Part shown: in pieces, positions 33,505 to 57,331 of the stretch | Layout of the letters: every line of letters begins with the position of its first letter | How positions within the stretch are numbered: position 1 is the first letter of the stretch | Source of the DNA: Myxococcales bacterium | GTDB lineage: Bacteria; Myxococcota; Myxococcia; Myxococcales; 40CM-4-68-19 | Assembly: GCA_035635635.1 (NCBI GenBank) | Contig: DASQAS010000056.1 | Coordinates: 18,666 to 82,665 of the forward strand | DNA: 64,000 bases | Reading direction: 5' to 3' | Translations under genes and position numbers: made by a program | The notes under the pieces: model-generated | Told to the model about the DNA's origin: nothing | What the model saw: the letters and a program-made list of their open reading frames with translations, nothing else | The model's database searches: none

Positions 33505-34950
33505 TCAGTGTGCCGGAGGCCTCTGCGGCGGAGGGTTCTCCCGCGGCGGACGCGGTGGAGGACGCGGCAAGGCCTGCGGCATCTCCGCCAGCGCATACGC
33601 CACCAGCGCGGTCGCCGCGACGTTCCTCGCCAGCTCGGCCGGATCGATCTTGTCGAACGTGTCGGCGGCGCTGTGGTGGGTGTCGAAGTAGTGCGTCCCT
33701 TCGTTGTGCACGCGCACCAGCGGGACCGACGCCGAGTCCATTGGCCCGAGGTCCGCCCCCCCCGCGTCCCCCGGTTCGAGCCGGATCCCGAGCCCTTCGA
33801 GCGGGGCGATCCAGGGATTGAGCAGCTCGCCGGCACCTTCTCCCGCCCGCAACCGGATGGAGAGCGGCCGGCCCGCGCCGCTGTCCGCCTCCAGCGCCGC
33901 CACGTGGTTGGCCAGCTCGGCCCGGTGCGCAGCCGCGTAGGCCTTCCCTCCGGCCAGGCCGTTCTCCTCGTTCATGAACAGCACCACCCGCACCGTGCGC
34001 CGCGGGCGCTGCTTCAGCGAGCCGATCAGCCGCCCGGCCTCCATCACCATCGCCACTCCGGCGCCGTCGTCGTTCGCGCCGGTCCCGAGGTCCCAGGAGT
34101 CGAGGTGGGCGCCGAGCAGCACCACCTCGTCGGGCCGCTCGCGGCCGCGCACGTCGGCGACCACGTTCGACGAGTCCGCGTCCGGCAGCATCCGGCAGCC
34201 GAGCGACAGCCGCACGCGCACCGGCCCCCGCTGCAGGAGGCGCGAGATCAGGTCCGCGTCCTCGGTGCTGATCGCCGCGGCCGGGATCTGTCCGGCGTCG
34301 GCGTCGTAGCTGGTCATGCCGGTGTGCGGCGAGCGCAGCGAGGCCGTGGCGAGCGAGCGCAAGAGGACGGCGACCGCGCCGAGCCGCGCCGCGGCGGAGG
34401 GGCCGCGGGTGCGCATCTCCACGAAGCGGCCGTAGTCGTCCGGCTTGCTCATGGCGTGGTTGAAGAAGACGATCTTCCCGCGCGCGGCAGCGCCCAGCGC
34501 GGACAGCTCCGCCAGCGACCCGGCTTGCACCACTTCGGCAGTGGCGTTTCCGCCCACGCTGTTGCCCAGCGCGGTCAGCGCGAGGCGGTGCCCGACCAGG
34601 CCGGCCGCCGGCAGGATCTCGCCGCTCTCCTCGCCGCGCACCCAGTGCGGCACCTTCACCGGCTCGAGCCGCGCGGAGAGCCCGTCCTGCTGGAGCTTCT
34701 TCAGCGCCCACTGGACGGCGGCCTCGGCCCCGGGCGATCCGGACAGGCGGGGACCGACGGTGTCGGTGAGCTCGCGCAGGCTCGCGTAGGCGACGCCGTC
34801 GGCGAGGGCGCCGCCGACGAGCTGGCGGGCGACGTCGGGTGGAACGGCGGCGGAGAGCACCAGGAGCGCGATCAGCAAGATTTCGGCCTCCTTGAAAAGA
34901 CCGGACTCTACGCCAAGGGAGGTCGGGTGCGTGCGCCAATGTGCCCACAA
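33505..34950 (-). CDS. M28-family zinc aminopeptidase (exported)
   Basis: Metal-binding contexts are [32 protein letters not shown] and a C-terminal HHSAADT. There is an N-terminal hydrophobic segment, [13 protein letters not shown]. The exact start is uncertain; a GTG about 13 codons downstream is possible. Confidence 0.85.
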
Positions 34951-35012
34951 TGTCGCGTGGCCTCGCCCGCCAACCCTGTGGTCTGTCAGGGACTAGAGAG
35001 GAGCCCTCCAAA

Positions 35013-35687
35013 ATGAAGCGAGTCCTTCTTCTTGCGTTCGTGATGGCTGCCTGCGGCGGGAGTGGATCGGGCAATACCGCCGTGGATCGCAACCGCGCCG
35101 GCACCGGCAGCGCCACTCTTCTGGTGTCCGCCACCGTGACAGTGACCAATTCCTCCACCACCCCCAGCACCGCGCTGGGCGTGGACGTGAGCGACGGCCT
35201 CAACGCCAAGGTGAGTGGCGCCACCGTGACCATCCAGAACGCGGGCCTGGGAGGCGACGTCGCGCTGACCGAAGGCACGGCGGGGTCGGGGCACTACACC
35301 GCCTCGAAGACCTCGCTGCCCTCGGGCGACTTCACCCTCTCCGTGGTGAGCGGCACGAACAAGGTGCAGGGCGTGGTTCTGGGAAGCCCCGGTGTCCACG
35401 CCATCAACGCCCCGGCCCTGAACGGGACGGTGACGGCGAACCAGCCGCTCGACGTGAGCTGGACGACGCCGGCGATGGCCAAGTCCGCGACGATCACGAC
35501 CCGCAACTACACGATCCAGGTGCCGGACACGGGCGCGTACACGATCCCGGCCGCCAACAACCCGGTCCGGACGGGCCAGCGCGTGATCATCACGCGGACC
35601 AACGAGACGGACATCGCGGGCGGGCTGCCCGGATCGAGCATCCGGGCGAGCGTGACCACCACCGTGGATCCGTTCAACGTCCAATAG
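35013..35687 (+). CDS. Lipoprotein (Ig-like/beta-rich, hypothetical)
   Basis: The ATG is preceded by GAGAGGAG. The lipobox is LLLAFVMAAC. The body is Thr/Val/Ser/Gly-rich and beta-strand-like. The 3' end overlaps the convergent Orf-J by 14 nt. Confidence 0.7.
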   Translation: MKRVLLLAFVMAACGGSGSGNTAVDRNRAGTGSATLLVSATVTVTNSSTTPSTALGVDVSDGLNAKVSGATVTIQNAGLGGDVALTEGTAGSGHYTASKTSLPSGDFTLSVVSGTNKVQGVVLGSPGVHAINAPALNGTVTANQPLDVSWTTPAMAKSATITTRNYTIQVPDTGAYTIPAANNPVRTGQRVIITRTNETDIAGGLPGSSIRASVTTTVDPFNVQ

Positions 35688-38193
35688 CCCGACGAATCCG
35701 CAGGGCGACCAGCGAGGGGCCGGACACGTCCAGCCACTGCTTCAGGACCGAGCGGCGGCCGTCGAAGGCCAGGTTTCCGCCGGCGAGGAGCGTCTGGAAC
35801 GGCGACGACGTGTCCGCCCCTCCGCTGAACCACTGCTCGACGCGCAGGAGCGAGTCGCTGCCGCCGGAGAACCCGCTCCACCAGGAGTCCTCGCGGTGAG
35901 GAGAGAGATCCGGCTCGGCTGACGCGCCCGCGCCGGCGATGCCGAACCAGCGCTGGACGAGGCCGTCGCCCGAGGCGACGTCCACGCCCTGCAGCTCCAG
36001 CGCGGGCTCCGCCGGCTCCTCTGCCGCGCGCACGCGCAGCGCGCCTTCGCAGACGCGCCGCTTGGTCATGCGCTGGATCTGGAGCGGAGCCTCGAGGAGG
36101 GGGCGCCGCGCCAGGTGCTCCTCGATGCGCCGCAGGGTCTCCTTCTCCCGGCGCTCGTCGGGCACGTCGAGGGCGATCAGCTTCCAGCCTTCGCCGAGCA
36201 GGTGCAGCCGGACGCCCGCGCCGCGCAAGGTGGTGAGGTCCGGCGCGGCCCGCCGCAGGGTCCCCTCGAGCTGCCGGCGGACCAGGGCGATGACGGTCTC
36301 CAGCAAAGCCTCGCCGAGCTGCCCGTGCCGCGCGCCTTCGGCATCGCGGAGCGCGCCGCCGCCCGCGATCAGCGCCCGCCAGCGCCGCGCCGTCGCGCGA
36401 TAGGCGCTGCGCACGGAGGTGGGCGCATCGCGATCCGCGCTGGCGAAGGCCGCCGCGTCGATCAGGCGCTCGCCGCCCAGCAGATAGCTCATCGAGGAAC
36501 CCGGAACGAAGGGAAGCGGACGGCCCGGAGCCTGGGGCAGGCGGACGGTGACTTGTAGCGTGAGCCCGCCGAAGTCCACGAAGGTCTCCAGCGGATGGCG
36601 ATCGTCGCGCGCGCGCGCCCGGCCGGAGCGCGCCGCGAGCGGGTCGGTCACCAGCCGGTGCGAAGCGGTAGCCCAGGCTGCGGACAGCCCGGCGCAGAGC
36701 TGCCGGCCGACGCCGTCGAAGATCGTCCGGAACGGTTGCTGGCCGCCGCTGTCGAAGGCGCACTCCGGATAGGTGAGCACCGCCTCCGCAGAGGACAGAT
36801 TCGGCCGGCGCAGCGTCCAGCGGCCTCCTTCGGGCGTGACCAGCGGAGTGCCGTGGGCGGCCGCCAGGGTGCGGCCCAGGTGAAAGGCGTACGTTTCCAG
36901 GAGCCTGCGGCTCACCTCGGTCCGGTCGGCGAGCGGCTGCGGCACGTCCGCCAGCCAGTCCGAGAGCAACAGGAGCTCGGGGGACTTGAACCGATCGATC
37001 AGGAGCGGCGCGTGGTTGCCTCCGCTTTCCGATGCCTGCGGCAGCCAGAGCTGCGCGGCGGCGTCGGGCGCGCCGGTCAGCAGATCCACCAGCGCCTCCG
37101 GCGAAGCGGCGGACAGCGCGGTCGGGAGCTGCTCGCCCGGCGCCAACAGATGGTCGGCGCAGCCCACCTCGTGCGCGCTCGCCGCGTCGCCGGCGATGCG
37201 GCGGAATCCGGAGGGGGAGGGGCGCGGCGCTCCCTGCGGCAAGAGCTTCGCGCCGATGGATCCGGCGGCCGCGTTGTCTTCCTCGACCGCCACCGTGGAC
37301 GTGCTTCCGATGTCCACCGCGAGGCGCAGCGTGCCGGGCACCGGCGAAGCGGCTGCGCTGACCCCGGCCTCCGGCGCGTCCTTGGTGCACGCCTGCCAGA
37401 TCGCCGGCAGGTCCCAGAGCGCCTGCGGCTCCCGGCCCTCCAGGACGCGCAGGACCGCCCAGCGGGGCCAGCCCGCGGGCCAGTCGGCGGTGGGCGGCGA
37501 ATCGCTCCGCGGCATCACCCAGGTGACGGTGGTCTGCCCCCGCGCTCCGGGGGCAGGCGCGACGGGCGAGGCCGGGGCGCCCAGCCAGATCCGCACGGGA
37601 GCGCGGGGCTCCGATGCGCGTCGGGCGGCTGCGCGCAGCCAGACCTCGCCGCGCCAGTCGGCGGCGGGGAACGGCGGCGACAGCGCCAGGTGGAGGCGCA
37701 GCGAGGCGGCGACCGAGCCGTACCGGCCCGCGAAGACCAGCGGGAAGCACTCCACCGCCGCAAGCTCCGTCTCGCGCACGACCGCGAGCCAGGCCCGCTG
37801 CACCACGCGAGGCCCGTCGAGGTGCGGCGGTCCCTCCAGCAGCAGCACGCCGGCGTCGATCAGCCAGGCGCACCAGGACGGCATCGGAAGGGGCAGCAGG
37901 GCCTTCTCCGCCGCGGGACCCTGGGCGTTGGCCGGCACCAGCAGCGGATCCGCGCAGCCCACCGCGTCGCGCCAGTCGGCGAGCGCGGGCCGCAAAAGGC
38001 CGTTCACCGCCGACTCGGCCAATCCGAAGCGCGCGCCCATGCCCGTGAGCAGCGCGTCGATGGCGAGCGCCGGCCGCAGCGGCTCGGACTGTCCCCATCC
38101 TCCGGGCCGCTGCGGAGGAGCGCCGCGGCGCTTGAGGACGCGCAGGACCGCGCCCGCCGCGCGCCGGATGGAGAGGGAATCGCCGTCCGCCAT
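35674..38193 (-). CDS. Orf-J: 839-aa protein with actin/Hsp70-like (ASKHA) phosphate-binding motifs; last gene of the 10-gene operon
   Basis: The full ORF is ATG-initiated, 6 nt after the Orf-I stop. The phosphate-1-like motif is LAVDIGSTSTVAV (D294, nt 37297-37314). The phosphate-2-like motif is FVDFGGLTLQVTV (D540, nt 36565-36576). An adenosine-motif-like LHLLGEGWK lies near aa 667. There is no signal peptide or TM segment. Confidence 0.75.
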   Translation of the reverse strand: MADGDSLSIRRAAGAVLRVLKRRGAPPQRPGGWGQSEPLRPALAIDALLTGMGARFGLAESAVNGLLRPALADWRDAVGCADPLLVPANAQGPAAEKALLPLPMPSWCAWLIDAGVLLLEGPPHLDGPRVVQRAWLAVVRETELAAVECFPLVFAGRYGSVAASLRLHLALSPPFPAADWRGEVWLRAAARRASEPRAPVRIWLGAPASPVAPAPGARGQTTVTWVMPRSDSPPTADWPAGWPRWAVLRVLEGREPQALWDLPAIWQACTKDAPEAGVSAAASPVPGTLRLAVDIGSTSTVAVEEDNAAAGSIGAKLLPQGAPRPSPSGFRRIAGDAASAHEVGCADHLLAPGEQLPTALSAASPEALVDLLTGAPDAAAQLWLPQASESGGNHAPLLIDRFKSPELLLLSDWLADVPQPLADRTEVSRRLLETYAFHLGRTLAAAHGTPLVTPEGGRWTLRRPNLSSAEAVLTYPECAFDSGGQQPFRTIFDGVGRQLCAGLSAAWATASHRLVTDPLAARSGRARARDDRHPLETFVDFGGLTLQVTVRLPQAPGRPLPFVPGSSMSYLLGGERLIDAAAFASADRDAPTSVRSAYRATARRWRALIAGGGALRDAEGARHGQLGEALLETVIALVRRQLEGTLRRAAPDLTTLRGAGVRLHLLGEGWKLIALDVPDERREKETLRRIEEHLARRPLLEAPLQIQRMTKRRVCEGALRVRAAEEPAEPALELQGVDVASGDGLVQRWFGIAGAGASAEPDLSPHREDSWWSGFSGGSDSLLRVEQWFSGGADTSSPFQTLLAGGNLAFDGRRSVLKQWLDVSGPSLVALRIRRAIGR

Positions 38194-38199: not shown

Positions 38200-38535
38200 T
38201 CAGCGCAGGTGCGCCCGGGCCGCGGCCGCGGGGGCATCCTGGACTTCCGGGGGTGGAGAGCTCTTCGGCAAGGCGGGCTCCTCGTCCAATTCTTCCTCGA
38301 CGAGGCGGCGCCGGCGCAAGAGCACCCGGAAAACCCCGGTGCTGACCGCGAATAGCCCGGCCAGGGCGGCGACGAGGTTGGCGTCGCCCAGGGCGGCCGC
38401 GGCGTCGAGCCACTCCGGGGGGCCGTACAGCGCCAGGGCACTGGGCACGAGCAGGCTGACCCCGGCGCCGGCGAGGAGCGCCAGGATCCACGGCCTGCGC
38501 TCGAGGCGCAAGAGTCTGCGTCCCATCCTGCTCAT
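38200..38535 (-). CDS. Orf-I: 111-aa two-TM membrane protein
   Basis: ATG at 38535 overlaps the Orf-H TGA (ATGA). The product is MSRMGRRLLRLERRPWILALLAGAGVSLLVPSALALY...ANLVAALAGLFAVSTGVFRVLLRRRR plus an acidic/Pro tail. Only the last 111 codons of ORF 38200..40725 are accepted. Confidence 0.6.
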   Translation of the reverse strand: MSRMGRRLLRLERRPWILALLAGAGVSLLVPSALALYGPPEWLDAAAALGDANLVAALAGLFAVSTGVFRVLLRRRRLVEEELDEEPALPKSSPPPEVQDAPAAAARAHLR

Positions 38536-41030
38536 GGCTCCCCGCCGTCGATGGTCCACTCCCGGGCCGGGATGCCGGAAGAGCGCGCCAGTCCGAGGTC
38601 CACCAGTGGACTGTGCGAGACCAGGATCGCGGCATTGCGGCCCTGGGAGTCCGAGACCCAGCCGAGCAGCGCGTCCATCAGCCGCAGGTGGGCCGCGGGA
38701 TCGGCGGCGCCGAAGGGCTCGTCGAGCAGGAGCAGCCGCGTCCGGCGGGCCGACTCCAGCCGCATCACCTCCGCGGCGAGGAGGATGCGCTGCCGCTCGC
38801 CCTCGGAGAGGGCGCCGATCGATCGCGCCAGCAGTTCCCTGTCGAGCGCGCCGCCGTACCAGCGCTGGGCGAGCCCGTGCCCCTGCGCGGCGGAGACCTT
38901 GCCCAGGACCTCGCGGACGGGCATCTCGGCGGGAAAGGCCCGGGCCGCGTCCTGCATGACGAAGCCTATTTGTAGCGAGAGCGGCGGCCGCGCGGCGATC
39001 TCGCGGAGCAAGGTGGACTTGCCGCAGCCCGAAGGGCCGGAGAGGACGACCAGCTCGCCGCCGCGGATCCGGGCGGAAGCGGAGACGGAATAGGGGCGAC
39101 CGGAGATGGTGGTGCGGTCGCGGAGGACCCGGACGCCCTCGCCGTCCTTCGCGGCCGCGGACTCGCCCGGCGCGCGCTCCCGGGCCGCGAACAGGGCGTC
39201 GACCGCCGCGAAGTACTGCTGCAGCCCCTGCGGCTCGGCTCCCTCCCAGCGGCGGACCGGACCGGCGAGCACGGAGAGCGCCCGCGCCTTGCGCTCCTCG
39301 ATCCAGAGGACGTGGTCGGCGACGGCGTCCGCGGCCCGATCGCCGAGGAGCGCGTCGATGGGCTCGGGATCGTGCGAGGTGAGCACCACCGCTCCGGTTC
39401 CGCTGAACTGCGCCGGCAACAGCTCGCGCACGCAGTCGAGCAGCGCGTGCGTGCGCGGCCCGTCCTGCGCCGAGGTGGGCTCGTCCAGGAGCAGCGTGCA
39501 GGCCGGATCCGCGCGCGCCCGCGACAGGGCGAGCGAGAGCAAGAGGCGCTGCCGCTCGCCGCGCGAGAGCGCGGAGACGGGCGTGAAGGGATCGAAGAGG
39601 CGCCTGCGGAGCGGAGCGTCGCCGAGCCGGCCGAGCAGGTCCCAGAGCACCCGATCGGCGTGCCCGTCGCGGGGCCGCGCCAGCCGGGCGACGTCGGGTG
39701 CGGAGAAGGAGCGCGGCAGCGCCTCGTCCGGATCCTGCGGGACCAGCACCGCGCGGGGAAGCTGCGCCGTCCAGGCGCGCAGCAGCGTGCTCTTGCCGGC
39801 GCCCGAAGGACCCAGCACCCACTGCAGCGCAGGGCGCGTGGCGATGCCGTGCGCGCTGGCCACCCCTCGCGCGAGGACGCCGCGGCCGACGCGGAGCACG
39901 CCGCCCTCGAGGGTGACACGTCCGGTCCCGCGGGGCAGCGTCTGCGCCAACAGGAGCAGGAGGGCGGCCGCGACCACCGCAAGGTGCGTCGTCCCCCAGG
40001 CGGCGGGGAACGGCAGCGGCAGGCCGTCTCCGCCGGCGCCGCGCAGGAACAGCGCGGCTCCGAGCGAGGGATAGGGCGGGAACCCCGGCGGGCGGAAGCT
40101 GTCGATCAGCGTGTTGGAGAGGATGTCGATCAGCGCGGCGGCCGCCATTCCCGCCAGCAGCAGCGCGCCCAGCTCGCGCCGCCGGCGCAGCCACAGGCCC
40201 TGCCGGACCAGGATCGACCAGGGCCGCTCGCCGCGGACCCGGGCGGCCAGGAACGAATCGCTGCTCTCCTCCGCGGCGCGGACGTCGTCCAGCCAGCTCC
40301 ACAGCCCCCGGCCGATCCCGAGGCCCAGCCCCACCGAGGCCGCGAGCAGGCCGGGCGCGATGCCGAGAAGCGATCGATAGGCGAGCTGCTCGTCGGGCCG
40401 CAGCGCCAGCCATTGTCCGGCGGCGAGGAAGGCCACCTCCGCGCAGATCAGCGCGCGGACCACCAGGGCGAACGCGACATAAGGGACGGCGCCGGCGAAC
40501 GAGAGCACGCCGCCGATGGCGCGCGCCCACCCGTCCATGCGCTGCGCGTAGAGCAAGAGCCAGAGGGCGCCGATCACCGCCGCGGTGGCCAGCGCGCCCA
40601 GCGCGACCAGCGTGGTGCCGGCGAGCATCATCGCCAGCGGCGGCTCCGAGAGGCGAGGGAACGGAAGCGCTCCATGCCAGGCGAGCAGAAGGCGCGGCGG
40701 AAAGAGCACGCCGCTCGAGCGCCACGCCTCGGCGGTGGCGGCGGCGATCAGCACGAGCGCGCCGGCGGACAGGGCGTCCGAGATGGATCGCGGAGGCGCG
40801 GCGTCCCGGCCCAGCCCCTCGCGGACGTTCACCCGGATGAAGGCGAGCACGATCGCGCCCCCGCCGGCGAGCAGGAGCCCGAGGAGCGCGGCGGCCGCCG
40901 GGTAAGGCTCGTCGCGGGCGGGCAGGACCAGAAGCTGCCCCGCGCCGACCGCAAGCAGCACGGCTCCGAGCGCGGAGAGGGCGCGGAAGCCGGGCGGGAG
41001 AAGGGCGTCGATCCGTGGGCGCCCCGTCAT
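38532..41030 (-). CDS. Orf-H: fused ABC transporter polypeptide (Opp/Dpp-like permease domain plus two ATP-binding cassettes)
   Basis: ATG at 41030 overlaps the Orf-G TGA. The N-terminal half has about 6 TM segments and an EAA-loop-like stretch, SDSFLAARVRGERPWSILVRQGLW. NBD1 has GPSGAGKSTLL, LSRGERQRLLLSLAL and LLLDEPTSAQD. NBD2 has GPSGCGKSTLL, LSEGERQRILLAAEV and LLLLDEPFGAAD. The upstream 385 codons of ORF 38532..42185 are rejected. Confidence 0.85.
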   Translation of the reverse strand: MTGRPRIDALLPPGFRALSALGAVLLAVGAGQLLVLPARDEPYPAAAALLGLLLAGGGAIVLAFIRVNVREGLGRDAAPPRSISDALSAGALVLIAAATAEAWRSSGVLFPPRLLLAWHGALPFPRLSEPPLAMMLAGTTLVALGALATAAVIGALWLLLYAQRMDGWARAIGGVLSFAGAVPYVAFALVVRALICAEVAFLAAGQWLALRPDEQLAYRSLLGIAPGLLAASVGLGLGIGRGLWSWLDDVRAAEESSDSFLAARVRGERPWSILVRQGLWLRRRRELGALLLAGMAAAALIDILSNTLIDSFRPPGFPPYPSLGAALFLRGAGGDGLPLPFPAAWGTTHLAVVAAALLLLLAQTLPRGTGRVTLEGGVLRVGRGVLARGVASAHGIATRPALQWVLGPSGAGKSTLLRAWTAQLPRAVLVPQDPDEALPRSFSAPDVARLARPRDGHADRVLWDLLGRLGDAPLRRRLFDPFTPVSALSRGERQRLLLSLALSRARADPACTLLLDEPTSAQDGPRTHALLDCVRELLPAQFSGTGAVVLTSHDPEPIDALLGDRAADAVADHVLWIEERKARALSVLAGPVRRWEGAEPQGLQQYFAAVDALFAARERAPGESAAAKDGEGVRVLRDRTTISGRPYSVSASARIRGGELVVLSGPSGCGKSTLLREIAARPPLSLQIGFVMQDAARAFPAEMPVREVLGKVSAAQGHGLAQRWYGGALDRELLARSIGALSEGERQRILLAAEVMRLESARRTRLLLLDEPFGAADPAAHLRLMDALLGWVSDSQGRNAAILVSHSPLVDLGLARSSGIPAREWTIDGGEP

Positions 41031-42097
41031 CGGACGCTCCCGATCGCGCTGAGCGAGGAGCGGATCTCCACCACGAAACGGTGGCCGAGCACCCAGAGCA
41101 CCACCAGCGCGCCGCCGACCAGCGCCGCCGACGACAGCCGCTCCCCGACCGAGGCCTCGCGCATGGCCGAGCGGATCAGCGAGCCGAGCCCGCTGGCGGC
41201 GGCGACCACCGAGGGGTCCTGGTCCGCCTTCGCGCAGGCGAACACGGCGGCGGCGGCGAGCGCGGGCACCAGGGGAATGAGCCACTGGACGGCATCGAGC
41301 GCGGACAGCCGTGCGGCCGCCGACACCGCGGGCCTGCCGCCCAGCGCGCTCAAGCAGGCCGCCTGGGGCGCGGAGCCGAAGAGCCCGCGCGCCGCCGCGC
41401 CGGACAGCGCGCCCGCGAACCCGGCGACGAAGAGCACCGCGGCCGGGCCGACGCCGAGGGAGCGCGTGCGGTCGTAGAACAGGGCCGGATCGAGCAGCGG
41501 CCACAGCGGTAGGACGACCAGGACCGCGGTGGCGCCGGAGAGCAGCGCATGCCGCGCGGCGGGCCGCAGGCTCCGCCTCCAGCGGATCAGCTCGGCGGCG
41601 ATTCCACCCGCGGCCGCGGCCAGGACCGCGAGTCCGAGGCCGCCGAGCAAAAGCCCGAGAGCGTCGGACACGCCGCGGGCGGCGCTGCGGAAGCGGCTGC
41701 GATCGGCCACCGAGGCCGCCCACGCGTCGCGGAGCGAAACCAGGCGCGCTCCGTCGTCCCCGGCCGGCGTCAGCGCCCACGGTGGCCGGCGCGCCCAGAG
41801 CGATCGCAGCGGTCCGTCGGGCGCGTCCGCTCCCAAGCTCCGTTCCGCGAGCGCGCGCAGGACGGCGAGATCGAAGTCGAGATAGGCGGAGGCGGAGGGC
41901 TGGGTCCGCTCGGGGGCGCCGCTGCGGTCCACCAGCGCCAGCGCGACGGCGAGCGCGAGCAGGCAGGCGCAGGCGACGGAGGCGGCGGCCAGCCATCGGG
42001 TCGCGGCGGCCGCGATCTGCGCCGCGCGAGCGGCGCCGGCCAGGGCATCCAGCCCGTCTGTCGGCGCCGCGATCCGCAGCTCCGTGGGGCCGCTCAT
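41027..42097 (-). CDS. Orf-G: polytopic membrane protein, probable ABC permease partner (OppB/DppB-like topology)
   Basis: ATG at 42097 overlaps the Orf-F TGA. TM1 is followed by a loop of about 100 aa and then about 5 further TM segments. I see no clear sequence motif beyond topology. Confidence 0.65.
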   Translation of the reverse strand: MSGPTELRIAAPTDGLDALAGAARAAQIAAAATRWLAAASVACACLLALAVALALVDRSGAPERTQPSASAYLDFDLAVLRALAERSLGADAPDGPLRSLWARRPPWALTPAGDDGARLVSLRDAWAASVADRSRFRSAARGVSDALGLLLGGLGLAVLAAAAGGIAAELIRWRRSLRPAARHALLSGATAVLVVLPLWPLLDPALFYDRTRSLGVGPAAVLFVAGFAGALSGAAARGLFGSAPQAACLSALGGRPAVSAAARLSALDAVQWLIPLVPALAAAAVFACAKADQDPSVVAAASGLGSLIRSAMREASVGERLSSAALVGGALVVLWVLGHRFVVEIRSSLSAIGSVR

Positions 42098-43107
42098 CGC
42101 GCGCGCTCCGTTCCGGCGCCGATGCAGCGGCCCTCGTGGCCCAGCGCGCAGCCGAGCTGCTGCTCGAGAGCGCCGCGCAGCACATCCATCTCCTGGCAAT
42201 GGCCCGACCAGGCGCCGGCGTCCAGCGTCCAGCTCGCCCGATCGAGCGAGCGCCGCGCGCCGACGATCTGCGCTTCCCACTGATCGAAGCGGTCGAGCAG
42301 CGCGGTCCGGACGCGCGCTTCGCCGCCGCAGCGCGCGCTCGCGGCCGGCGGCGGCGGCACGGCGGCGGGTGCCGGAGGTGGCGGCGCGGGGGCCGCGGCG
42401 GCCGCTTCCGGCCTGGGCGGCTCTCCGCCGAGCAGGATCGACTCGTCGAACGCGGCGCCGGGATCGAAGGCGCGCGCCCAGCGCGCGTCGCCGTAACGGA
42501 ACGGCTCGGCCCAGCGCTCGCGCCCCGCGACCAGCGGGAACGAGGACCTTGCCAGGTCCGGATCGCCGTCGGCCTTCACCGGCAAGAGCCACCATTCACA
42601 GGTGGTCGCGCCCAGGAGATCGGACGAGGGCCAGCCGCGTTCGGCGCCCCAGCAGACGAGAGCGGCGCGGAGCGCGCTGCGGTCCGCCTGCGCCGCGACC
42701 AGGTGCTGGTCTTTGCGGCGCTGTGGCGCCCGGGGCCAGCCGTCGATCGCCGACCGGACGGCGAATCGATCGATCAGCGCCGCCGAGGGCGGCGTGCGCG
42801 AGAGCCGGATGGCGGCGAGCTCGACCGTGCCGCGGGGGCCGAAGAAGGCCGCGGCGGGCACGGCGCAATCCGGATCGGCCTTCGAGCGCAACAGCTTCAC
42901 GCGGTCGGGCGACCTGGACCGCTGCTGCGCGTACTCGGCGAGCGCGCGGGTCTGCGCGCCCGGCCGGACCTCGCAGACGTCGTCCGGTTCTCCCTGGCAA
43001 TCGGAGCAGCCACGCAGGGACGCGGGCTTCGCGGCGTACTGGTAGACGCGGAACCAGTCCGGCGCCTCGGACGCGGTGAGCAGGGCGATCGCCAGCGCGG
43101 CGGTCAC
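42094..43107 (-). CDS. Orf-F: exported Cys-rich protein (337 aa), hypothetical
   Basis: GTG at 43107 overlaps the Orf-E TGA (GTGA). The N-terminus is short and hydrophobic (VTAALAIALLTASEA). There are about 10 Cys, a Pro/Ala linker (PPRPEAAAAAPAPPPPAPAAVPPPP) and a C-terminal helical module. The start is less certain than the others. Confidence 0.6.
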   Translation of the reverse strand: MTAALAIALLTASEAPDWFRVYQYAAKPASLRGCSDCQGEPDDVCEVRPGAQTRALAEYAQQRSRSPDRVKLLRSKADPDCAVPAAAFFGPRGTVELAAIRLSRTPPSAALIDRFAVRSAIDGWPRAPQRRKDQHLVAAQADRSALRAALVCWGAERGWPSSDLLGATTCEWWLLPVKADGDPDLARSSFPLVAGRERWAEPFRYGDARWARAFDPGAAFDESILLGGEPPRPEAAAAAPAPPPPAPAAVPPPPAASARCGGEARVRTALLDRFDQWEAQIVGARRSLDRASWTLDAGAWSGHCQEMDVLRGALEQQLGCALGHEGRCIGAGTERAR

Positions 43108-45341
43108 GGCTGCGCGCTCCAGGCCTGCAGCAGCCGGGTGAAGTACCAGGGGCTGCGCGCGGCGTCGCCCTGCGACTCGGGAATGGTGAGCGTCGCAGGC
43201 TGGAGGAAGGCCAGGGGATAGATCGGCGCCGGTCCGTTGCGCGCGACGTCGTCCTCCAGGAGCCGCAGGCTGTCCGCGCGCGTCGGCGGCGGTCCGCCTT
43301 GGGCGCCGAGCCAGGCCGGAGGCGGATAGACGATGGAGGACTCGTAGCCGGCGAGCAGCGTGCGACCCGGGCTCTCGCTCACCGCCTGTCCGCCGCTCAG
43401 GTTCTGGTTGCCGGCGGGATGCAGCAGCGGGACCAGCGTCGGGTACTTGCGGTTGTAGTAGTTGCTCGCAACCGTGAGCAGCACGTCCCAGCTCCCCAGC
43501 GCGCCGCGGTGCACCTCGCTCGCCTTCACGCCCGAGACGGAGACGGAGACGCCCTGGGCCGCGGCGACGGCCGCGATGCGCGCGGCGGCGGCGGCCCAGG
43601 GCTCCTCCTGGACGTAGACGAGGCTGAGCGGACGGCAGCCTTCCTCGGCGATCTCGCCGAACGGCTTGGCCTGGCGCCCGACGCAGGCATCCGCGGCGCC
43701 GTCGCCGCCCTTCGGGACCAGGCCGGCCACCGTCCGCGCCCGCGCGTCGCAGGGGGCGCGGTTCTCGCCCGCGCCGAGCGGCTCGCGCAGGTCCCGTTGC
43801 AGCTCGAGCAAGCGGTCCTCGCTGGCCGCGCCCAGCGCATTGAAGAGCCGCCGCACGCAGCGCGTGTTGCCGTCGCGGCGCGCGAAGAGGGCGACCAAGG
43901 ACTCGAAGCCGTCCTCGGCGGGCTCGATCGCCCGGCGGGGTCCGTCCAGGTTCCAGAGGGCGCGGAAGAGGCAGATGCCCGGCTGCTGCCGGCACTGCAG
44001 TCGCCTCTCGGCCACCGACTCGGGCCAGAGCGGCTGGTACCGGACCAGCAGGCGCGATCGCGCGCCCTTCGCTTTCGGCACCTCCGCCGAGCTCTCCAGC
44101 GTGACGTGCAAGGCGTCGTAGTCGGTCAGGTGGAACGGGCCGCTCGCGCCGATGTGGTAGGGGATCTCGTCGGCCGCGAGGTTGGTGAGCGGCGGCTGGA
44201 GCTTGCCCACCGACGCGCGGAGCTGGGCGGCCATGCGCTCCCGCTTGAGCTTGCAGGCGCGCTCGCCGCCTGCCTCGCACCTGAACAAGTCCACCATCGC
44301 CTCGTCGTCGAAGGCGGCGCGCTGCAGGCTGCGCAAGAGCGGGGTGGCGCGCGAGGGCAGGCGCGGATCGAACGGCGCGAACACCGGGAAGGCCAGCGTC
44401 TGCGCCGCCATCTCCGCCTCGTGGGGCCGCTCGACGTCGATGCCGCGGATCAGCAGGCAGAGCCCGCGGGGCTGCCGCTCGAAGAACGCGCGCAGGTCCG
44501 CCGCCGTCTCCGAGCTGCCCGGCGTGCCGAGCGTCGCGGCGTTCCAGGGCTGCGCCTCGATGAAACGGGAAGCGTTGGTTGCGGTCACGGCCTCCGACAC
44601 CAGCGAGCTCAGGTGGACGCTCATGGGGACGGGCCCGCAGGCAGCCGGCGCCACGGAGGACGGCGCGGCCGCCTGCGCCAGCGCCTGGTAGTAGTAGAGG
44701 CTGGCCGCGACGTCGTCGGGGGCGAGATCGGCGTTGCTCCCCTGGAAGCAGGCTCCCTGCGCGCAGGTGCGGACCACGCCGCAGTAGAGCAGCGCGCTCG
44801 CCGCCTTGCTCACCGCGCAGTTCGCCCCTCCGGGCGCGCAGCTCTCGAGCCGGCCGACCTCCAGGATCGAGCCGGGCGCATCGTCCGTCTGCCGGCGCGA
44901 GAGCTGCAGGGCGGGGAGGAAGAGCGCGTCGTGGAGCTGTTGCTCGGTGAGCGTGGCGTACTGGCCGGGGCACAGCGGCGCGACCCGGCCGCTGACCTCG
45001 TAGACCAGCACGTCGCCGACCTCGTCCACCGCCTGCGCTTCGCACTGGTGCGCGGATCCCGCGGTCGCGAAGCGGAGGAACTGGTCCGGCAGGTCCGACT
45101 GCATCGGGCACTTCAGCAATACCGGGCCGGTGGGCTCGCGCACCTTGAGCACCGCGTGGCGGCCGCGGACCGAGTAGGTGGCCTGCTTGCGCACGGCCGG
45201 GGGCAGTGCACGGTCGATGCGCAGCGCTCCCATGCGCTCGGACAAAGACCAGGGCGAAGCCGGCCGCACGGGCGCATTGCTGCGCACGTACGCGGTGCCG
45301 GAAGCGGCGGCCCCCGCAAAGGCCATCGCGATGGCGAACAA
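43104..45341 (-). CDS. Orf-E: exported Cys-rich protein (745 aa), hypothetical
   Basis: A TTG start at 45341 gives the signal-like MFAIAMAFAGAAASGTAYV; an in-frame ATG lies 5 codons downstream. There are about 18 Cys spread through the protein. I recognise no domain. Confidence 0.7.
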   Translation of the reverse strand: MFAIAMAFAGAAASGTAYVRSNAPVRPASPWSLSERMGALRIDRALPPAVRKQATYSVRGRHAVLKVREPTGPVLLKCPMQSDLPDQFLRFATAGSAHQCEAQAVDEVGDVLVYEVSGRVAPLCPGQYATLTEQQLHDALFLPALQLSRRQTDDAPGSILEVGRLESCAPGGANCAVSKAASALLYCGVVRTCAQGACFQGSNADLAPDDVAASLYYYQALAQAAAPSSVAPAACGPVPMSVHLSSLVSEAVTATNASRFIEAQPWNAATLGTPGSSETAADLRAFFERQPRGLCLLIRGIDVERPHEAEMAAQTLAFPVFAPFDPRLPSRATPLLRSLQRAAFDDEAMVDLFRCEAGGERACKLKRERMAAQLRASVGKLQPPLTNLAADEIPYHIGASGPFHLTDYDALHVTLESSAEVPKAKGARSRLLVRYQPLWPESVAERRLQCRQQPGICLFRALWNLDGPRRAIEPAEDGFESLVALFARRDGNTRCVRRLFNALGAASEDRLLELQRDLREPLGAGENRAPCDARARTVAGLVPKGGDGAADACVGRQAKPFGEIAEEGCRPLSLVYVQEEPWAAAAARIAAVAAAQGVSVSVSGVKASEVHRGALGSWDVLLTVASNYYNRKYPTLVPLLHPAGNQNLSGGQAVSESPGRTLLAGYESSIVYPPPAWLGAQGGPPPTRADSLRLLEDDVARNGPAPIYPLAFLQPATLTIPESQGDAARSPWYFTRLLQAWSAQP

Positions 45342-45369
45342 CGTCCTCAGGCAGGACCCTTCTCGGCCG

Positions 45370-54143: not shown

Positions 54144-54208
54144 ATGCGACTCCTCCAATGTAGGGGACACCCGATTGGGTGTCCCCAGCGGGTTGTCCCG
54201 GACTGGTA

Positions 54209-56809: not shown

Positions 56810-57331
56810 ATGCGACTCGCGGTGCTCCTTGCCGGGCTGATCCTCGCCGTGCCGGTGGATGCAGCGCCGCGCCGCACGCCCTGGCTGCTCTTTCCCATCG
56901 ACGTCCGGCGCTTCGAGCACCTGTCTTCGCCCTTCGGCGTCCGCAAGCTGAACGGACACAAGAGCCTGCACCGCGGGGTGGATCTGGTGGCGCCGCAGGG
57001 CTCGTGGGTGGTCGCGGCGCGCGAGGGCAAGGTGGCCGACGCGGGACGGGCGCGCCGCTGCGGCTGGTACGTCACCGTTGAGCACGAGAACGGATGGCGC
57101 ACGGTCTACTGCCATCTGCGCTCCGACCCGCGCCGCCTGGGGATCACCGAAGGCGTTCGCGTCCCCGCGATGGGGGTGGTCGGCGAGGTGGGGAGCACCG
57201 GGCACTCCACCGGGCCACACCTGCACTTCTCGCTGCTCGATCAATTGGGCCGCGCGCAGGACCCGCTCCTGGCGCTCTACACGCCGGCGGAGACGCTGCG
57301 CGTCCTGAAGAAGATGGGGCTGGCCAGATGA
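56810..57331 (+). CDS. M23-family metalloendopeptidase (exported)
   Basis: The signal peptide is MRLAVLLAGLILAVPVDA. Motifs are HRGVDLVAP (HxxxD), GWYVTVEHENGWRTVYCHL and GSTGHSTGPHLHFSL (HxH). Confidence 0.88.
   Translation: MRLAVLLAGLILAVPVDAAPRRTPWLLFPIDVRRFEHLSSPFGVRKLNGHKSLHRGVDLVAPQGSWVVAAREGKVADAGRARRCGWYVTVEHENGWRTVYCHLRSDPRRLGITEGVRVPAMGVVGEVGSTGHSTGPHLHFSLLDQLGRAQDPLLALYTPAETLRVLKKMGLAR

What the first reader, a model, noticed from the sequence alone, without database searches (positions are those of the whole stretch)
35674..38193. Orf-J: an oversized actin/Hsp70-like (ASKHA) fold protein at the end of the operon
Three motifs appear in the order expected for the ASKHA ATPase fold:
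- A DxGxT-type phosphate-1 motif, AVDIGSTSTVAV, at D294.
- A DxGGxT-type phosphate-2 motif, VDFGGLTLQV, at D540.
- A GxG adenosine-like motif, LLGEGW, near aa 667.

These motifs are embedded in an 839-aa protein. It has a 290-aa N-terminal extension, a 245-aa insertion between the phosphate motifs, and a 150-aa C-terminal extension rich in Trp/Gly (WWSGFSGGSDS, WFSGGADTSSPF). It has no Hsp70 substrate-binding domain signature and no FtsA, MreB or PilM length match. An actin-like ATPase encoded directly after an ABC transporter module is unusual. It suggests either a cytoplasmic scaffold or filament, or a second nucleotide-driven step.
Basis: partly seen in the sequence, partly recalled or inferred. 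Interest (0 to 1): 0.65.

Follow-up and report, generated by a model that had tools for sequence, protein, structure and literature searches.

The report
Orphan Hsp70-like ATPase beside ABC transporter
The gene encodes a real 839-residue cytoplasmic protein whose core has the two-lobed ATP-binding fold of Hsp70 and actin, from a very rare unnamed family that is always encoded just after an unusual ABC transporter and a tiny membrane protein; what it does is still unknown.

Summary
The ORF is real but lies on the minus strand (35674-38193, 839 aa).

The ASKHA reading is supported:
- The phosphate-1 (D294), phosphate-2 (D540) and adenosine (G667) motifs are invariant in 39 homologues and largely kept in relatives of 22-39% identity.
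- Two further Hsp70/actin-clade motifs are present: D517-P-x-A-A, and L-G-G-E at 572-575.
- An AlphaFold2 model (pTM 0.85) has the canonical strand and helix order.
- Its Foldseek hits are almost exclusively Hsp70 nucleotide-binding domains plus ParM (E about 1e-6).

At sequence level it is not a member of any described family. It has no Pfam, NCBIfam or PADLOC hit and no significant PDB sequence hit. Only 56 relatives exist among 1.84 billion cluster representatives. Close ones come only from uncultured soil Myxococcales genomes.

The trio of an ABC protein (membrane domain plus two NBDs), a two-helix hairpin membrane protein and the ASKHA protein is conserved in all six other informative main-family loci. 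In the window and three distant loci it sits in an island with a divergent peptidoglycan glycosyltransferase.

The most likely role, by inference only, is an ATP-driven switch or scaffold docked on the ABC complex. I rate it a new variant of a known kind, of moderate interest.

The parts
35674..38193 (-). Target gene g10: 839-aa cytoplasmic protein (no TM segment, no signal peptide), last gene of the operon
   Evidence: ORF and translation. GC3 is 0.90. 87 homologues. No hydrophobic segments. A convergent gene lies downstream.
37339..38193 (-). N-terminal region, aa 1-285: short helices followed by tandem beta-sandwich domains; conserved motifs include PSWCAWL (105-111)
   Evidence: AF2 model of this region alone has pLDDT 84 and pTM 0.84. 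Foldseek against PDB gives no hit at E<=1e-3; the best are Ig-like or macroglobulin-like domains at E=3.7e-3. The motifs are kept in distant relatives.
36034..37338 (-). ASKHA (Hsp70-NBD-like) core, aa ~286-720
   Evidence: AF2 strand and helix order. Foldseek PDB and BFVD hits are Hsp70 NBDs and ParM. hhalign is colinear with the DnaK/HscA NBD.
37285..37320 (-). Phosphate-1 motif AVDIGSTSTVAV (aa 292-303; D294, G296, S297, T298) on the beta1-beta2 hairpin
   Evidence: Invariant in 39 of 39 homologues. D294 is kept in 18 of 19 and G296 in 19 of 19 distant relatives. It aligns with DnaK IGIDLGTTNSCVA.
36628..36645 (-). Connect-1 motif D517-P-L-A-A-R (family consensus DPAAA), equivalent to Hsp70 N-E-P-T-A-A-A
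   Evidence: D517 is kept in 38 of 39, P518 and A520 in 39 of 39. Aligned to DnaK NEPTAAA by hhalign and to Hsp70 SEPAAA/NEPTAA by HMMER.
36550..36579 (-). Phosphate-2 motif VDFGGLTLQV (aa 539-548; D540, G542, G543, T545)
   Evidence: Invariant in 39 of 39. G542 and G543 are kept in 19 of 19 and D540 in 16 of 19 distant relatives. It aligns with DnaK YDLGGGTFDI.
36463..36483 (-). LLGGERL (aa 571-577), counterpart of the Hsp70 HLGGEDF motif at the start of the helix after the phosphate-2 hairpin
   Evidence: L572, G573, G574 and E575 are invariant in 39. G573 and G574 are kept in 18 of 19 and E575 in 17 of 19 distant relatives. Aligned.
36184..36201 (-). Adenosine-type motif LLGEGW (aa 665-670; G667, W670), strand-to-helix turn
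   Evidence: G667 and W670 are invariant in 39 and kept in 18 of 19 distant relatives. The motif lies between strand 661-666 and helix 668-674 in the model.
35674..36033 (-). C-terminal Trp-rich region, aa 721-839 (DSWW 769-772, EQWF 786-789, KQW 818-820, GPSLVALR 825-832), modelled with low confidence
   Evidence: pLDDT is 52-76. W771, W772, Q787, W788, F789, Q819 and W820 are invariant in 39.
38200..38535 (-). g9: 111-aa protein with two TM helices and an acidic, proline-rich C-terminal tail, between the ABC gene and the target
   Evidence: Sequence read and hydropathy. Counterparts of 84-165 aa in five other loci all have two TM helices, four of them followed by a strongly acidic tail.
38532..41030 (-). 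g8: 832-aa ABC protein with about 7 TM helices followed by two nucleotide-binding domains in one chain
   Evidence: Pfam ABC_tran 5.8e-22 in two stretches. NCBIfam hits. Hydropathy and Walker A/B and signature motifs read in both NBDs. PDB NBD hits.
41027..42097 (-). g7: 356-aa polytopic membrane protein (about 6 TM), probably the second membrane domain of the ABC complex; fused to the ABC protein in some relatives
   Evidence: Hydropathy. The 1354-1356-aa ABC proteins in L005 and L007 have 10-12 TM segments. blastp to L001 and L008.
42094..47802 (-). g6 (337 aa), g5 (745 aa) and g4 (810 aa): exported, Cys-rich proteins (signal peptides; g4 has a lipobox-like TGGC) with no family model
   Evidence: Start/stop overlaps. 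Sequences. No Pfam, NCBIfam or PADLOC hit. g4 and g5 have weak blastp homologues in L005 and L007.
57094..59280 (+). h5: 728-aa membrane-anchored protein with a divergent GT51 peptidoglycan glycosyltransferase domain; part of a second gene set linked to the trio in distant genomes
   Evidence: Pfam Transgly 3.1e-15. NCBIfam PBP1-type hits below cut-off. 41-54% identical homologues lie next to the trio in L004, L007 and L008.

Best explanation
g10 is a cytoplasmic ATPase of the actin/Hsp70 (ASKHA) superfamily. Its core (aa ~286-720) is most like an Hsp70 nucleotide-binding domain.

**What is shown**
- The core has the fold and the complete set of nucleotide-binding and catalytic motifs: D294, D517, D540, T545, the G542-G543 loop and G667.
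- It is flanked by a family-specific N-terminal tandem beta-sandwich module and a Trp-rich C-terminal tail.
- It lacks an Hsp70 substrate-binding domain.

**What is inferred**
- The protein binds and hydrolyses ATP, and opens and closes its two lobes as other ASKHA proteins do.
- It works as a nucleotide-dependent switch or scaffold docked at the cytoplasmic face of the co-encoded ABC-type membrane complex (g7 and g8).
- Docking is probably through the two-helix hairpin protein g9, whose acidic tail faces the cytoplasm, or through the NBDs directly.
- The whole assembly belongs to a larger envelope apparatus. This includes exported Cys-rich proteins (g4-g6) and, in most genomes examined, a divergent peptidoglycan glycosyltransferase and other wall-active proteins.

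The working analogy is PilM-PilN, MreB-RodZ or FtsA-FtsEX: an actin-fold protein in the cytoplasm couples nucleotide state to a machine that acts in the periplasm.
For: **Fold**
- The AF2 model has pLDDT 80 and pTM 0.85, with the canonical order of strands and helices in both lobes.
- Foldseek against PDB gives 127 hits at E<=1e-3. The top 50 are Hsp70 NBDs plus ParM, best 1.5e-6, probability 1.0.
- In BFVD the 13 hits at E<=1e-3 that carry a name are all viral Hsp70 or Hsp70h; 3 are unnamed.

**Sequence**
- All 9 sub-threshold PDB hits of the diverse family profile are Hsp70s, and they hit the phosphate-1 and connect-1/phosphate-2 motifs.
- hhalign gives a colinear alignment of about 330 columns to the DnaK/HscA NBD, pairing all five motifs.
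- The motif residues are invariant in 39 homologues and mostly kept at 22-39% identity.

**Partnership**
- The gene order ABC, small two-TM protein, ASKHA, with overlapping or abutting start and stop codons, is found in the window.
- It is also found in L001, L004, L005, L007, L008 and L036, that is 6 of 6 other main-family loci with enough flank, down to 23-28% identity.
- All five g9 counterparts examined have two TM helices, four of them followed by a strongly acidic tail.

**Envelope context**
- g4-g6 carry export signals.
- Homologues of window genes h2, h3, h4, h5 (GT51) and h6 lie beside the trio in L004 and L007, and those of h4, h5 and h6 in L008.
- A Peptidase_M23 gene lies beside it in L036.

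**Precedent**
- FtsEX, an ABC complex, is functionally tied to actin-like FtsA and to wall hydrolases (PMC8998562).
- RodZ links MreB to the wall synthase (PMC9804626, abstract).
- PilM-PilN is from my own knowledge.
Against: - No interaction, ATPase activity or localisation has been measured, and no cultured organism carries the gene.
- TM-scores to Hsp70 and ParM are low (0.27-0.46 on the target) because of insertions and lobe orientation, so the finer subfamily affinity is uncertain.
- Local-mode hhalign is weak: P about 1e-3 to 4e-3, probability 8-18%.
- The glycosyltransferase link is not universal. It was not seen within 10 kb in L005 or L036.
- The ABC membrane domains match no family, so the direction and nature of transport are unknown.
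- The most distant subfamily (P0125, P0133) has no ABC neighbour.
- The g9 hairpin differs from the single-pass partners of PilM, MreB and FtsA.
Confidence: 0.45

Rival explanations
1. It is a dedicated Hsp70-like chaperone or substrate-handling ATPase. g10 would bind a polypeptide or other cargo in the cytoplasm, through its beta-sandwich or Trp-rich parts, and use ATP cycles to hold, unfold or hand it to the ABC exporter.
For: The closest structural and motif matches are Hsp70 NBDs rather than MreB, FtsA or PilM. The protein has extra domains that could bind a client. It is strictly coupled to an ABC protein with two apparently competent NBDs.
Against: - There is no Hsp70 substrate-binding domain and no HSP70 Pfam match.
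- No J-domain or nucleotide-exchange-factor gene was found among the neighbours scanned.
- The exported neighbours g4-g6 have ordinary signal peptides and would not need an ABC route.
- The N-terminal domain has no significant structural match that would suggest peptide binding.
Confidence: 0.2
2. It is a filament-forming bacterial actin (ParM, MreB or MamK type). It would polymerise on ATP binding and position or move the membrane complex.
For: ParM is among the best structural matches (1mwk, E=5.8e-6; 4a61, E=2.1e-5). The catalytic motifs are intact.
Against: - There is no match to the Actin, MreB_Mbl, FtsA, StbA or PilM profiles.
- Hsp70 NBDs, which do not polymerise, outnumber and outrank ParM in every search.
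- About 400 residues of extra domains on both ends would have to be accommodated in a filament lattice.
- Nothing in the data speaks to polymerisation.
Confidence: 0.1
3. It is part of a conflict or anti-phage defence system, in which the ABC-type ATPase and the ASKHA protein act as sensor and effector components.
For: - g8 scores 3.4e-36 on the PADLOC mad3 model and more weakly on mad8, AriA and PtuA.
- The family is rare and patchy.
- In L005 the module lies beside helicase and transposase genes.
- The most distant subfamily lies beside a DUF87 (HerA-type) ATPase.
Against: - The PADLOC hits cover only the generic ABC NBD region, and no other gene of the cluster hits any defence model.
- There is no homologue on 72,556 plasmids or 50,697 phage records.
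- No nuclease, protease-effector or methylase domains were found.
- The neighbours are membrane and exported proteins and a wall glycosyltransferase, which points to envelope biology.
Confidence: 0.1
4. It is a small-molecule enzyme of the ASKHA superfamily: a sugar or acid kinase, a Ppx/GppA-type phosphatase or a reactivase. It would modify a substrate that the ABC transporter moves.
For: ASKHA includes many kinases. The phosphate motifs are intact. A link with a glycosyltransferase could fit a precursor-processing step.
Against: - No kinase, Ppx/GppA, BcrAD_BadFG, EutA or other Pfam or NCBIfam hit was found.
- The listed Foldseek hits are Hsp70 and ParM, not kinases.
- The DPxAA and LGGE motifs are typical of the Hsp70/actin branch (branch assignment from my own knowledge).
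Confidence: 0.05

Closest known systems
Hsp70 nucleotide-binding domain (DnaK, Hsc70, BiP; Pfam HSP70)
   Same: It has the two-lobed ASKHA fold and is the best structural match in PDB and BFVD. All five motifs are colinear: DxG[ST][ST], DPxAA (Hsp70 NEPTAAA), DxGGxT, LGGE and the G-rich adenosine turn. The spacing between motifs is similar (246 vs 186 and 127 vs 147 residues).
   Different: - There is no significant sequence match; the best PDB profile E-value is 0.55 and there is no Pfam hit.
- It has no substrate-binding domain or lid and no J-protein or exchange-factor neighbours.
- It has a 285-aa N-terminal beta-sandwich module and a Trp-rich tail.
- It is encoded with an ABC complex rather than with dnaJ and grpE.
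PilM-PilN (type IV pilus), FtsA with FtsEX/FtsN, MreB-RodZ: actin-fold proteins docked on envelope machines
   Same: A cytoplasmic ASKHA protein is encoded or functions with a small membrane protein and with a machine that acts on the envelope. FtsA is functionally tied to the ABC complex FtsEX and to wall enzymes (PMC8998562), and RodZ links MreB to the wall synthase (PMC9804626). Here the small membrane gene and the ABC gene are translationally coupled to g10, and wall enzymes are linked.
   Different: - There is no sequence membership in the PilM_2, FtsA or MreB_Mbl families.
- The partner is a two-helix hairpin with an acidic tail, not a single-pass protein.
- The protein is twice the size.
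- The ABC membrane domains are not FtsX-like by Pfam.
- The analogy is functional inference only.
ParM and other plasmid actin-like segregation ATPases
   Same: ParM structures are among the top Foldseek hits (E=5.8e-6, TM on target 0.43).
   Different: There is no partition context (no parR or parC-like genes), no plasmid homologues, no sequence match, and large extra domains.
SrfB (Pfam PF07520), a roughly 1000-aa putative virulence factor said to contain an actin-like ATPase domain (size and fold from my own knowledge)
   Same: It is a large bacterial protein in which an ASKHA-type core is embedded between long extensions.
   Different: There is no hit to the SrfB profile for the target or for 18 relatives, even at E<=10. 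No srfA or srfC-like neighbours were recognised. The structural comparison could not be run because no library of predicted cellular structures was available.

Membership tests
ASKHA superfamily (actin / Hsp70 / sugar-kinase fold) | Two RNase-H-like lobes, each beta-beta-beta-alpha-beta-alpha-beta-alpha, with the nucleotide site between them | tested here: met
   The AF2 model (pTM 0.85) shows both lobes. Lobe I: E281-295, E300-306, E331-334 ... H424-448 ... E509-516, H517-524. Lobe II: E535-542, E545-551, E566-572, H574-589 ... E661-666, H668-674 ... E704-709, H711-720. Foldseek probability is 1.0 to Hsp70 NBDs and ParM.
ASKHA superfamily (actin / Hsp70 / sugar-kinase fold) | Phosphate-1 motif DxG[ST] on the first beta-hairpin | tested here: met
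   D294, G296, S297 and T298 are invariant in 39. D294 is kept in 18 of 19 and G296 in 19 of 19 distant relatives. The motif lies at the end of strand 281-295.
ASKHA superfamily (actin / Hsp70 / sugar-kinase fold) | Phosphate-2 motif DxGGxT on the first hairpin of lobe II | tested here: met
   D540, G542, G543 and T545 are invariant in 39. G542 and G543 are kept in 19 of 19, D540 in 16 of 19 and T545 in 13 of 19 distant relatives.
ASKHA superfamily (actin / Hsp70 / sugar-kinase fold) | Adenosine motif (Gly-rich strand-to-helix turn in lobe IIA) | tested here: met
   LLGEGW is at 665-670, between strand 661-666 and helix 668-674. G667 is kept in 39 of 39 and 18 of 19.
ASKHA superfamily (actin / Hsp70 / sugar-kinase fold) | ATP binding and hydrolysis | not testable with these tools
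   This is inferred only from intact motif residues. It needs purified protein.
Hsp70 family (Pfam HSP70, PF00012) | Significant match to the family sequence profile | tested here: not met
   No HSP70 hit for the target or for 18 relatives at E<=10. The family profile against PDB gives Hsp70s only at E=0.55-2.7. hhalign local probability is 8-18%.
Hsp70 family (Pfam HSP70, PF00012) | C-terminal substrate-binding beta-sandwich plus helical lid (about 250 aa) | tested here: not met
   Only about 119 residues follow the core. They are Trp-rich, modelled at pLDDT 52-76 with few short strands, and have no profile match.
Hsp70 family (Pfam HSP70, PF00012) | J-domain co-chaperone and/or nucleotide-exchange factor as partners | tested here: not met
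   No DnaJ or GrpE domains were found in any of the neighbouring genes scanned. Partners encoded elsewhere cannot be excluded.
Polymerising bacterial actins (MreB, ParM, FtsA, MamK) | Match to the MreB_Mbl, FtsA, Actin or StbA profiles | tested here: not met
   No such Pfam or NCBIfam hits. hhalign to E. coli MreB and FtsA gives P=0.011-0.1 and probability <=4%.
Polymerising bacterial actins (MreB, ParM, FtsA, MamK) | ATP-dependent filament formation | not testable with these tools
   There is structural similarity to ParM (E=5.8e-6), but polymerisation cannot be judged from sequence.
PilM-type platform protein | PilM_2 profile match, and an adjacent gene for a single-pass PilN-like partner whose N-terminus binds PilM | tested here: not met
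   No PilM_2 hit. The adjacent small protein has two TM helices and an acidic C-tail, and no other pil genes are present. Only the general logic of an ASKHA protein plus a small membrane partner is shared.
SrfB (PF07520) | Match to the SrfB profile, and srfA/srfC neighbours | tested here: not met
   No hit at E<=10 in 19 family members. The neighbours have no Srf-family hits.
Known anti-phage defence systems (PADLOC-DB v2) | Target or several cluster genes match the models of one system | tested here: not met
   Only g8 matches, and only through its generic ABC NBDs (mad3 3.4e-36, mad8, AriA, PtuA). The target and the eight other genes scanned have no hit.

The most novel reading that the evidence does not exclude
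The trio of ABC protein, hairpin protein and Hsp70-like ATPase is the cytoplasmic and inner-membrane engine of a previously undescribed multi-component envelope machine. The machine has roughly 15 or more genes, almost all without any family model. It pairs an Hsp70-type ATPase with a non-standard ABC complex (TMD-(TMD)-NBD-NBD) and with a divergent GT51 glycosyltransferase and wall-lytic proteins. It could be a new apparatus for making, remodelling or crossing a peptidoglycan-like layer in uncultured soil bacteria.
Probability: 0.25. Interest if true: 0.8.

Novelty: new variant of a known kind. Interest (0 to 1): 0.55.

Why it matters
The ASKHA fold underlies actin, Hsp70, MreB, FtsA, ParM and PilM. 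Each new branch has so far revealed a distinct way of coupling ATP to cell organisation.

This branch is invisible to all curated family libraries. It is extremely rare: 56 representatives among 1.84 billion. It is locked, over deep divergence, to an ABC complex with an unusual domain order and to a small hairpin membrane protein. A partnership between an Hsp70-like ATPase and an ABC-type ATPase encoded in one translationally coupled unit has, to my knowledge, no characterised precedent.

If the link to the divergent peptidoglycan glycosyltransferase and lytic enzymes is functional, the island could be an unrecognised envelope machine of abundant but uncultured soil Myxococcota.

Practically, the result gives a defined family with clear catalytic residues to mutate. 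It also gives a short list of candidate partners (g8 and g9) to test.

Tried and rejected
1. **Reading the given coordinates on the + strand** gives a frame full of stops. The gene is on the minus strand.
2. **Family libraries.** Pfam, NCBIfam and PADLOC scans of the target gave nothing. A permissive scan (E<=10) of 19 family members also gave no ASKHA family.
3. **Profile of close homologues (A1) against PDB sequences** gave no hit even at E<=10. Only the more diverse profile A2 gave weak hits, all of them Hsp70.
4. **hhalign against single E. coli MreB and FtsA sequences** was not informative (probability <=4%). The 87% probability to DnaK/HscA came from a run with a stray -glob option. It fell to 8-18% in local mode, so I treat hhalign as supportive only.
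5. **N-terminal domain.** It was modelled separately and searched against PDB. Only generic Ig-like or macroglobulin-like beta-sandwich resemblance appeared, below significance, so no function is drawn from it.
6. **Looking up the window protein's own contig** failed because the protein is not on record.
7. **The search for related loci with the diverse alignment** failed for lack of conserved stretches. The close alignment found only Myxococcales or 'Deltaproteobacteria' MAGs.
8. **Names for distant relatives.** None carries an informative name.
9. **Plasmid and phage collections.** No match, so I rejected a mobile-element origin as the leading idea.
10. **Neighbours g4 and g5 against PDB sequences.** Nothing.
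11. **Literature searches** for an ASKHA/Hsp70-like plus ABC operon, or for SrfB as an actin-like ATPase, found nothing relevant.
12. **MADS defence system**, considered because of the mad3 hit on g8. I rejected it because only the generic NBD region matches and no other mad gene is present.

Full report
**1. The observation**

The coordinates 35674-38193 hold an 839-codon ORF on the minus strand. The plus strand in that frame is full of stops.

- The window is about 72% GC. The ORF has codon-position GC of 0.77/0.58/0.90, like the other clearly coding ORFs.
- Its ATG is preceded by GAGG.
- A convergent lipoprotein gene (34941-35687, + strand; MKRVLLLAFVMAACGG...) overlaps its 3' end by 14 nt, so it ends its operon.

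1. The gene is on the minus strand; the finding does not state a strand.
2. The spacing between the two phosphate motifs is 246 residues. DnaK has 186 between D8 and D194, so this is an excess of about 60 residues, not a 245-residue insertion.
3. The C-terminal extension beyond the core is about 120 residues.
4. A small gene lies between the ABC gene and this one.

**2. Conservation**

A word-indexed search of 5.8 billion proteins found 87 homologues. All are at least 49% identical, all are unnamed or 'hypothetical', none has a Pfam domain, and the named ones come from uncultured Myxococcales.

In an alignment of 39 of them, these residues are invariant:
- D294, G296, S297, T298
- P518, A520 (D517 is kept in 38 of 39)
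- D540, G542, G543, L544, T545, Q547
- L572, G573, G574, E575
- G667, W670, K671

An exhaustive HMMER profile search of 1.84 billion cluster representatives found only 56 proteins at E<=1e-3. About a dozen of these are full-length relatives of 22-39% identity. In those relatives:

| Residue | Kept in |
|---|---|
| G296, G542, G543 | 19 of 19 |
| D294, G573, G574, G667, W670 | 18 of 19 |
| E575 | 17 of 19 |
| D540 | 16 of 19 |

A scan of one genome per GTDB species found the close family in 22 loci. All are soil metagenome-assembled genomes labelled Myxococcales or Deltaproteobacteria bacterium. There are no homologues in the plasmid or phage collections.

**3. Fold**

AlphaFold2 on the 39-sequence alignment gave mean pLDDT 80 and pTM 0.85. 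The secondary-structure order in residues ~281-720 is the classical ASKHA pattern, seen twice:
- Three strands, with the phosphate motif on the first hairpin: D294 at the end of strand 281-295, and D540 at the end of strand 535-542.
- A strand followed by the DPxAA helix (509-516, then 517-524).
- A strand-to-helix Gly turn at 661-674.

Structure searches agree:
- Foldseek against PDB returned 127 hits at E<=1e-3. The 50 listed are Hsp70 nucleotide-binding domains (best 7krv_B, 1.5e-6) plus ParM (1mwk, 5.8e-6), all at probability 1.0.
- TM-scores are modest, 0.27-0.46 on the target. This is to be expected given the insertions and variable lobe opening.
- An independent library of predicted viral structures gave 13 hits at E<=1e-3. 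The 10 that carry a name are all viral Hsp70 or closterovirus Hsp70h, and 3 are unnamed.

At sequence level:
- The diverse family profile (A2) found nine sub-threshold PDB sequences (E=0.55-2.7), every one an Hsp70. They align through the phosphate-1 and the connect-1/phosphate-2 motifs.
- hhalign of the core against a two-sequence DnaK/HscA NBD alignment gave a colinear alignment of about 330 columns. It pairs these motifs:

| Target | DnaK |
|---|---|
| DIGSTST | DLGTTNS |
| DPLAAR | NEPTAAA |
| DFGGLTLQV | DLGGGTFDI |
| LLGGERL | HLGGEDF |
| HLLGEGW | ILVGGQT |

- Its statistics are weak in local mode (P about 1e-3 to 4e-3). One run with a stray -glob option gave 87% probability. I use hhalign as support only.

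The fold assignment is therefore well supported, at about 0.9. The DPxAA and LGGE motifs place the protein on the Hsp70/actin side of the superfamily rather than with the kinases; that branch assignment rests on my own knowledge of these motifs.

**4. What it is not**

- No Pfam, NCBIfam or PADLOC model matches the target.
- No ASKHA family (HSP70, MreB_Mbl, FtsA, PilM_2, Actin, StbA, EutA, SrfB) appears for any of 19 family members, even at E<=10.
- No Hsp70 substrate-binding domain is present. Only about 119 Trp-rich, poorly modelled residues follow the core.
- No J-domain or GrpE gene is nearby.

So it works like an ASKHA ATPase, but it is not a sequence-defined member of any described family.

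**5. Other parts of the protein**

- Residues 1-285 were modelled separately (pLDDT 84, pTM 0.84). They form short helices followed by tandem beta-sandwiches.
- Foldseek found nothing for this region at E<=1e-3. The best matches are Ig-like or macroglobulin-like domains at 4e-3. It is a family-specific module, plausibly for protein-protein contacts.
- Its motifs (PSWCAWL, and LAxSP...WRGP..LRAAA) persist in distant relatives, so it is an integral part of the family.
- The invariant R401-F-K-S-P405 (F402 and K403 are kept in 18 of 19 distant relatives) and the C-terminal DPWW, EQWF and KQW motifs have no explanation yet.

**6. Genomic context**

Upstream on the same strand, with ATGA or GTGA start/stop overlaps:

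| Gene | Coordinates | Length | Features |
|---|---|---|---|
| g3 | 47799-48710 | 303 aa | No family hit |
| g4 | 45370-47802 | 810 aa | One TM helix with a lipobox-like TGGC, Cys-rich |
| g5 | 43104-45341 | 745 aa | Signal peptide, Cys-rich |
| g6 | 42094-43107 | 337 aa | Signal peptide |
| g7 | 41027-42097 | 356 aa | About 6 TM helices |
| g8 | 38532-41030 | 832 aa | About 7 TM helices, then two ABC nucleotide-binding domains |
| g9 | 38200-38535 | 111 aa | Two TM helices, acidic and proline-rich tail |
| g10 | 35674-38193 | 839 aa | The target |

In g8, both NBDs have Walker A, Q-loop, signature, Walker B D-E and H-loop motifs (Pfam ABC_tran 5.8e-22; motifs read). None of g3-g7 or g9 matches any family.

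The order ABC, small protein, ASKHA recurs, mostly with overlapping start and stop codons:
- In L001 (51% identity; 785, 84 and 760 aa).
- In distant loci, with sizes given as ABC/small/ASKHA: L004 (916/104/947), L005 (1356/165/1015), L007 (1354/96/926), L008 (981/136/896) and L036 (969/249/963).
- That is six of six other main-family loci with enough flanking sequence.

Further points on the trio:
- In L005 and L007 the ABC protein carries 10-12 TM segments, which suggests a g7-g8 fusion.
- All five small proteins examined have two TM helices, four of them followed by a strongly acidic tail.
- Genes downstream of g10 differ between loci, so g10 is the conserved 3' end of the unit.

**7. A larger island**

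Window genes on the other side of the divergent promoter region have blastp homologues beside the trio in distant loci:
- h2 (52636-53298): signal peptide, and a motif resembling the lytic-transglycosylase E...GxxQ pattern on my reading, but no Pfam hit. Homologues are in L004 and L007.
- h3 (53295-54170). Homologues are in L004 and L007.
- h4 (within 56114-57244; about 3 TM helices). Homologues are in L004, L007 and L008.
- h5 (57094-59280; Pfam Transgly/GT51 3.1e-15, with PBP1-type NCBIfam hits far below cut-off). Homologues of 41-54% identity are in L004, L007 and L008.
- h6 (59647-60450). Homologues are in L004, L007 and L008.

L036 has a Peptidase_M23 gene next to the ASKHA gene. L005 shows no such genes within 10 kb and instead has helicases and transposases. 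The wall or envelope association is therefore frequent but not universal.

The most distant subfamily (P0125, P0133) occurs as two paralogues in L035. It has no ABC neighbour and sits near a DUF87 ATPase.

**8. Mechanism**

Shown:
- An ASKHA/Hsp70-NBD-like fold with a complete set of catalytic-site residues.
- A cytoplasmic location: no signal peptide and no TM segment.
- Obligatory genomic and translational coupling to an ABC-type membrane ATPase and a hairpin membrane protein.
- Frequent linkage to exported proteins and peptidoglycan enzymes.

Inferred:
- The protein binds and hydrolyses ATP.
- The resulting lobe movement is read out by partners bound at the inter-lobe groove or the accessory domains.
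- It docks on the ABC complex, directly or through g9.
- It thereby couples a second nucleotide cycle to whatever the complex does in the envelope.

Precedents for the logic:
- FtsEX with FtsA and wall hydrolases (PMC8998562).
- RodZ linking MreB to the wall synthase (PMC9804626).
- PilM-PilN (my own knowledge).

I put about 0.45 on this composite explanation.

Rivals:
- A dedicated Hsp70-like cargo-handling ATPase for the ABC exporter: 0.2.
- A polymerising actin: 0.1.
- A conflict or defence module: 0.1. The mad3 PADLOC hit on g8 covers only generic NBD sequence.
- A small-molecule kinase or phosphatase: 0.05.

**9. Novelty and verdict**

The fold is known. The family, its domain architecture (beta-sandwich module, Hsp70-like NBD, Trp-rich tail) and its fixed partnership with an ABC protein of unusual order (TMD-(TMD)-NBD-NBD) and a hairpin protein are not described in any library or paper I could search. 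I rate it a new variant of a known kind.

Interest is moderate at 0.55:
- A specialist in bacterial cytoskeleton, chaperones or envelope biogenesis would find the Hsp70-ABC coupling and the dark island worth following.
- However, function is entirely inferential and no cultured host exists.

Noticed in passing
window 51024-63454, and loci L004, L007, L008: A second gene set lies across a divergent promoter region from the operon: h2, h3, h4, the GT51 'Transgly' protein h5, and h6. Homologues of all five lie beside the ABC/hairpin/ASKHA trio in L004 and L007, and those of h4, h5 and h6 in L008; h5 is 41-54% identical there. Almost none has a family model. Together with g3-g10 this forms an island of about 28 kb.
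   Followed up: partly
window 38532-41030 (g8) and 41027-42097 (g7); L005 5429-9499; L007 5637-9701: The ABC protein has its membrane domain followed by two NBDs in one chain. In L005 and L007 a 1354-1356-aa version carries 10-12 TM segments before the two NBDs. This TMD-(TMD)-NBD-NBD order is not a standard ABC architecture, and the membrane domains match no Pfam family.
   Followed up: partly
window 38200-38535 (g9); counterparts in L001, L004, L005, L007, L008: The small protein between the ABC and ASKHA genes always has two TM helices. In four of the five counterparts examined these are followed by a strongly acidic, often proline-rich, C-terminal tail (for example ...DEADDTDEW, ...EDGHEDEGGGFI). 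The sequence itself is poorly conserved. It is a candidate tether for the ASKHA protein.
   Followed up: partly
window 18884-25135 (+): A 2083-aa ORF with strong coding signal carries a C-terminal eCIS_core domain (PF13699, 5.9e-26) and nothing else recognisable. It may be a large toxin or effector-type protein.
   Followed up: no
window 51024-52739 (+), h1: A 571-aa protein with no family hit contains an HEALH (HExxH-type) motif, suggestive of a zinc metallopeptidase. It is transcribed divergently from the operon.
   Followed up: no
window 52636-53298 (-), h2: A 220-aa secreted protein contains ...GMTETTLRPW...GAFQVMPWW..., which resembles the catalytic Glu and GLMQ motif of lytic transglycosylases. 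No Pfam hit was found even at E<=5.
   Followed up: no
L035 (NCBI GCA_964640745.1, contig CAZXJA010000001.1), genes at 10001-12916 and 15283-18129: The most distant subfamily (the P0133 and P0125 cluster) occurs as two paralogues about 2 kb apart. It has no ABC neighbour and lies beside a 1133-aa DUF87 (HerA/FtsK-type) ATPase. This is a different context from the main family.
   Followed up: partly
protein P0132 (1177 aa): One relative matches only the N-terminal part of the family profile (positions 89-382). It carries a C-terminal FGE-sulfatase domain (PF03781, 1.2e-33). The N-terminal module may therefore be used in other architectures.
   Followed up: no
window 14058-15680, 25478-27553, 28986-29639 (+): Second-messenger genes lie near the island: a HAMP-adenylate/guanylate cyclase, a GAF-GAF-GGDEF diguanylate cyclase and a PilZ-domain protein.
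   Followed up: no
window 34941-35687 (+): A convergent lipoprotein gene (signal peptide with lipobox MAAC, Thr/Ser-rich, no family hit) overlaps the 3' end of the target by 14 nt. No terminator-like hairpin was found between the two genes.
   Followed up: partly
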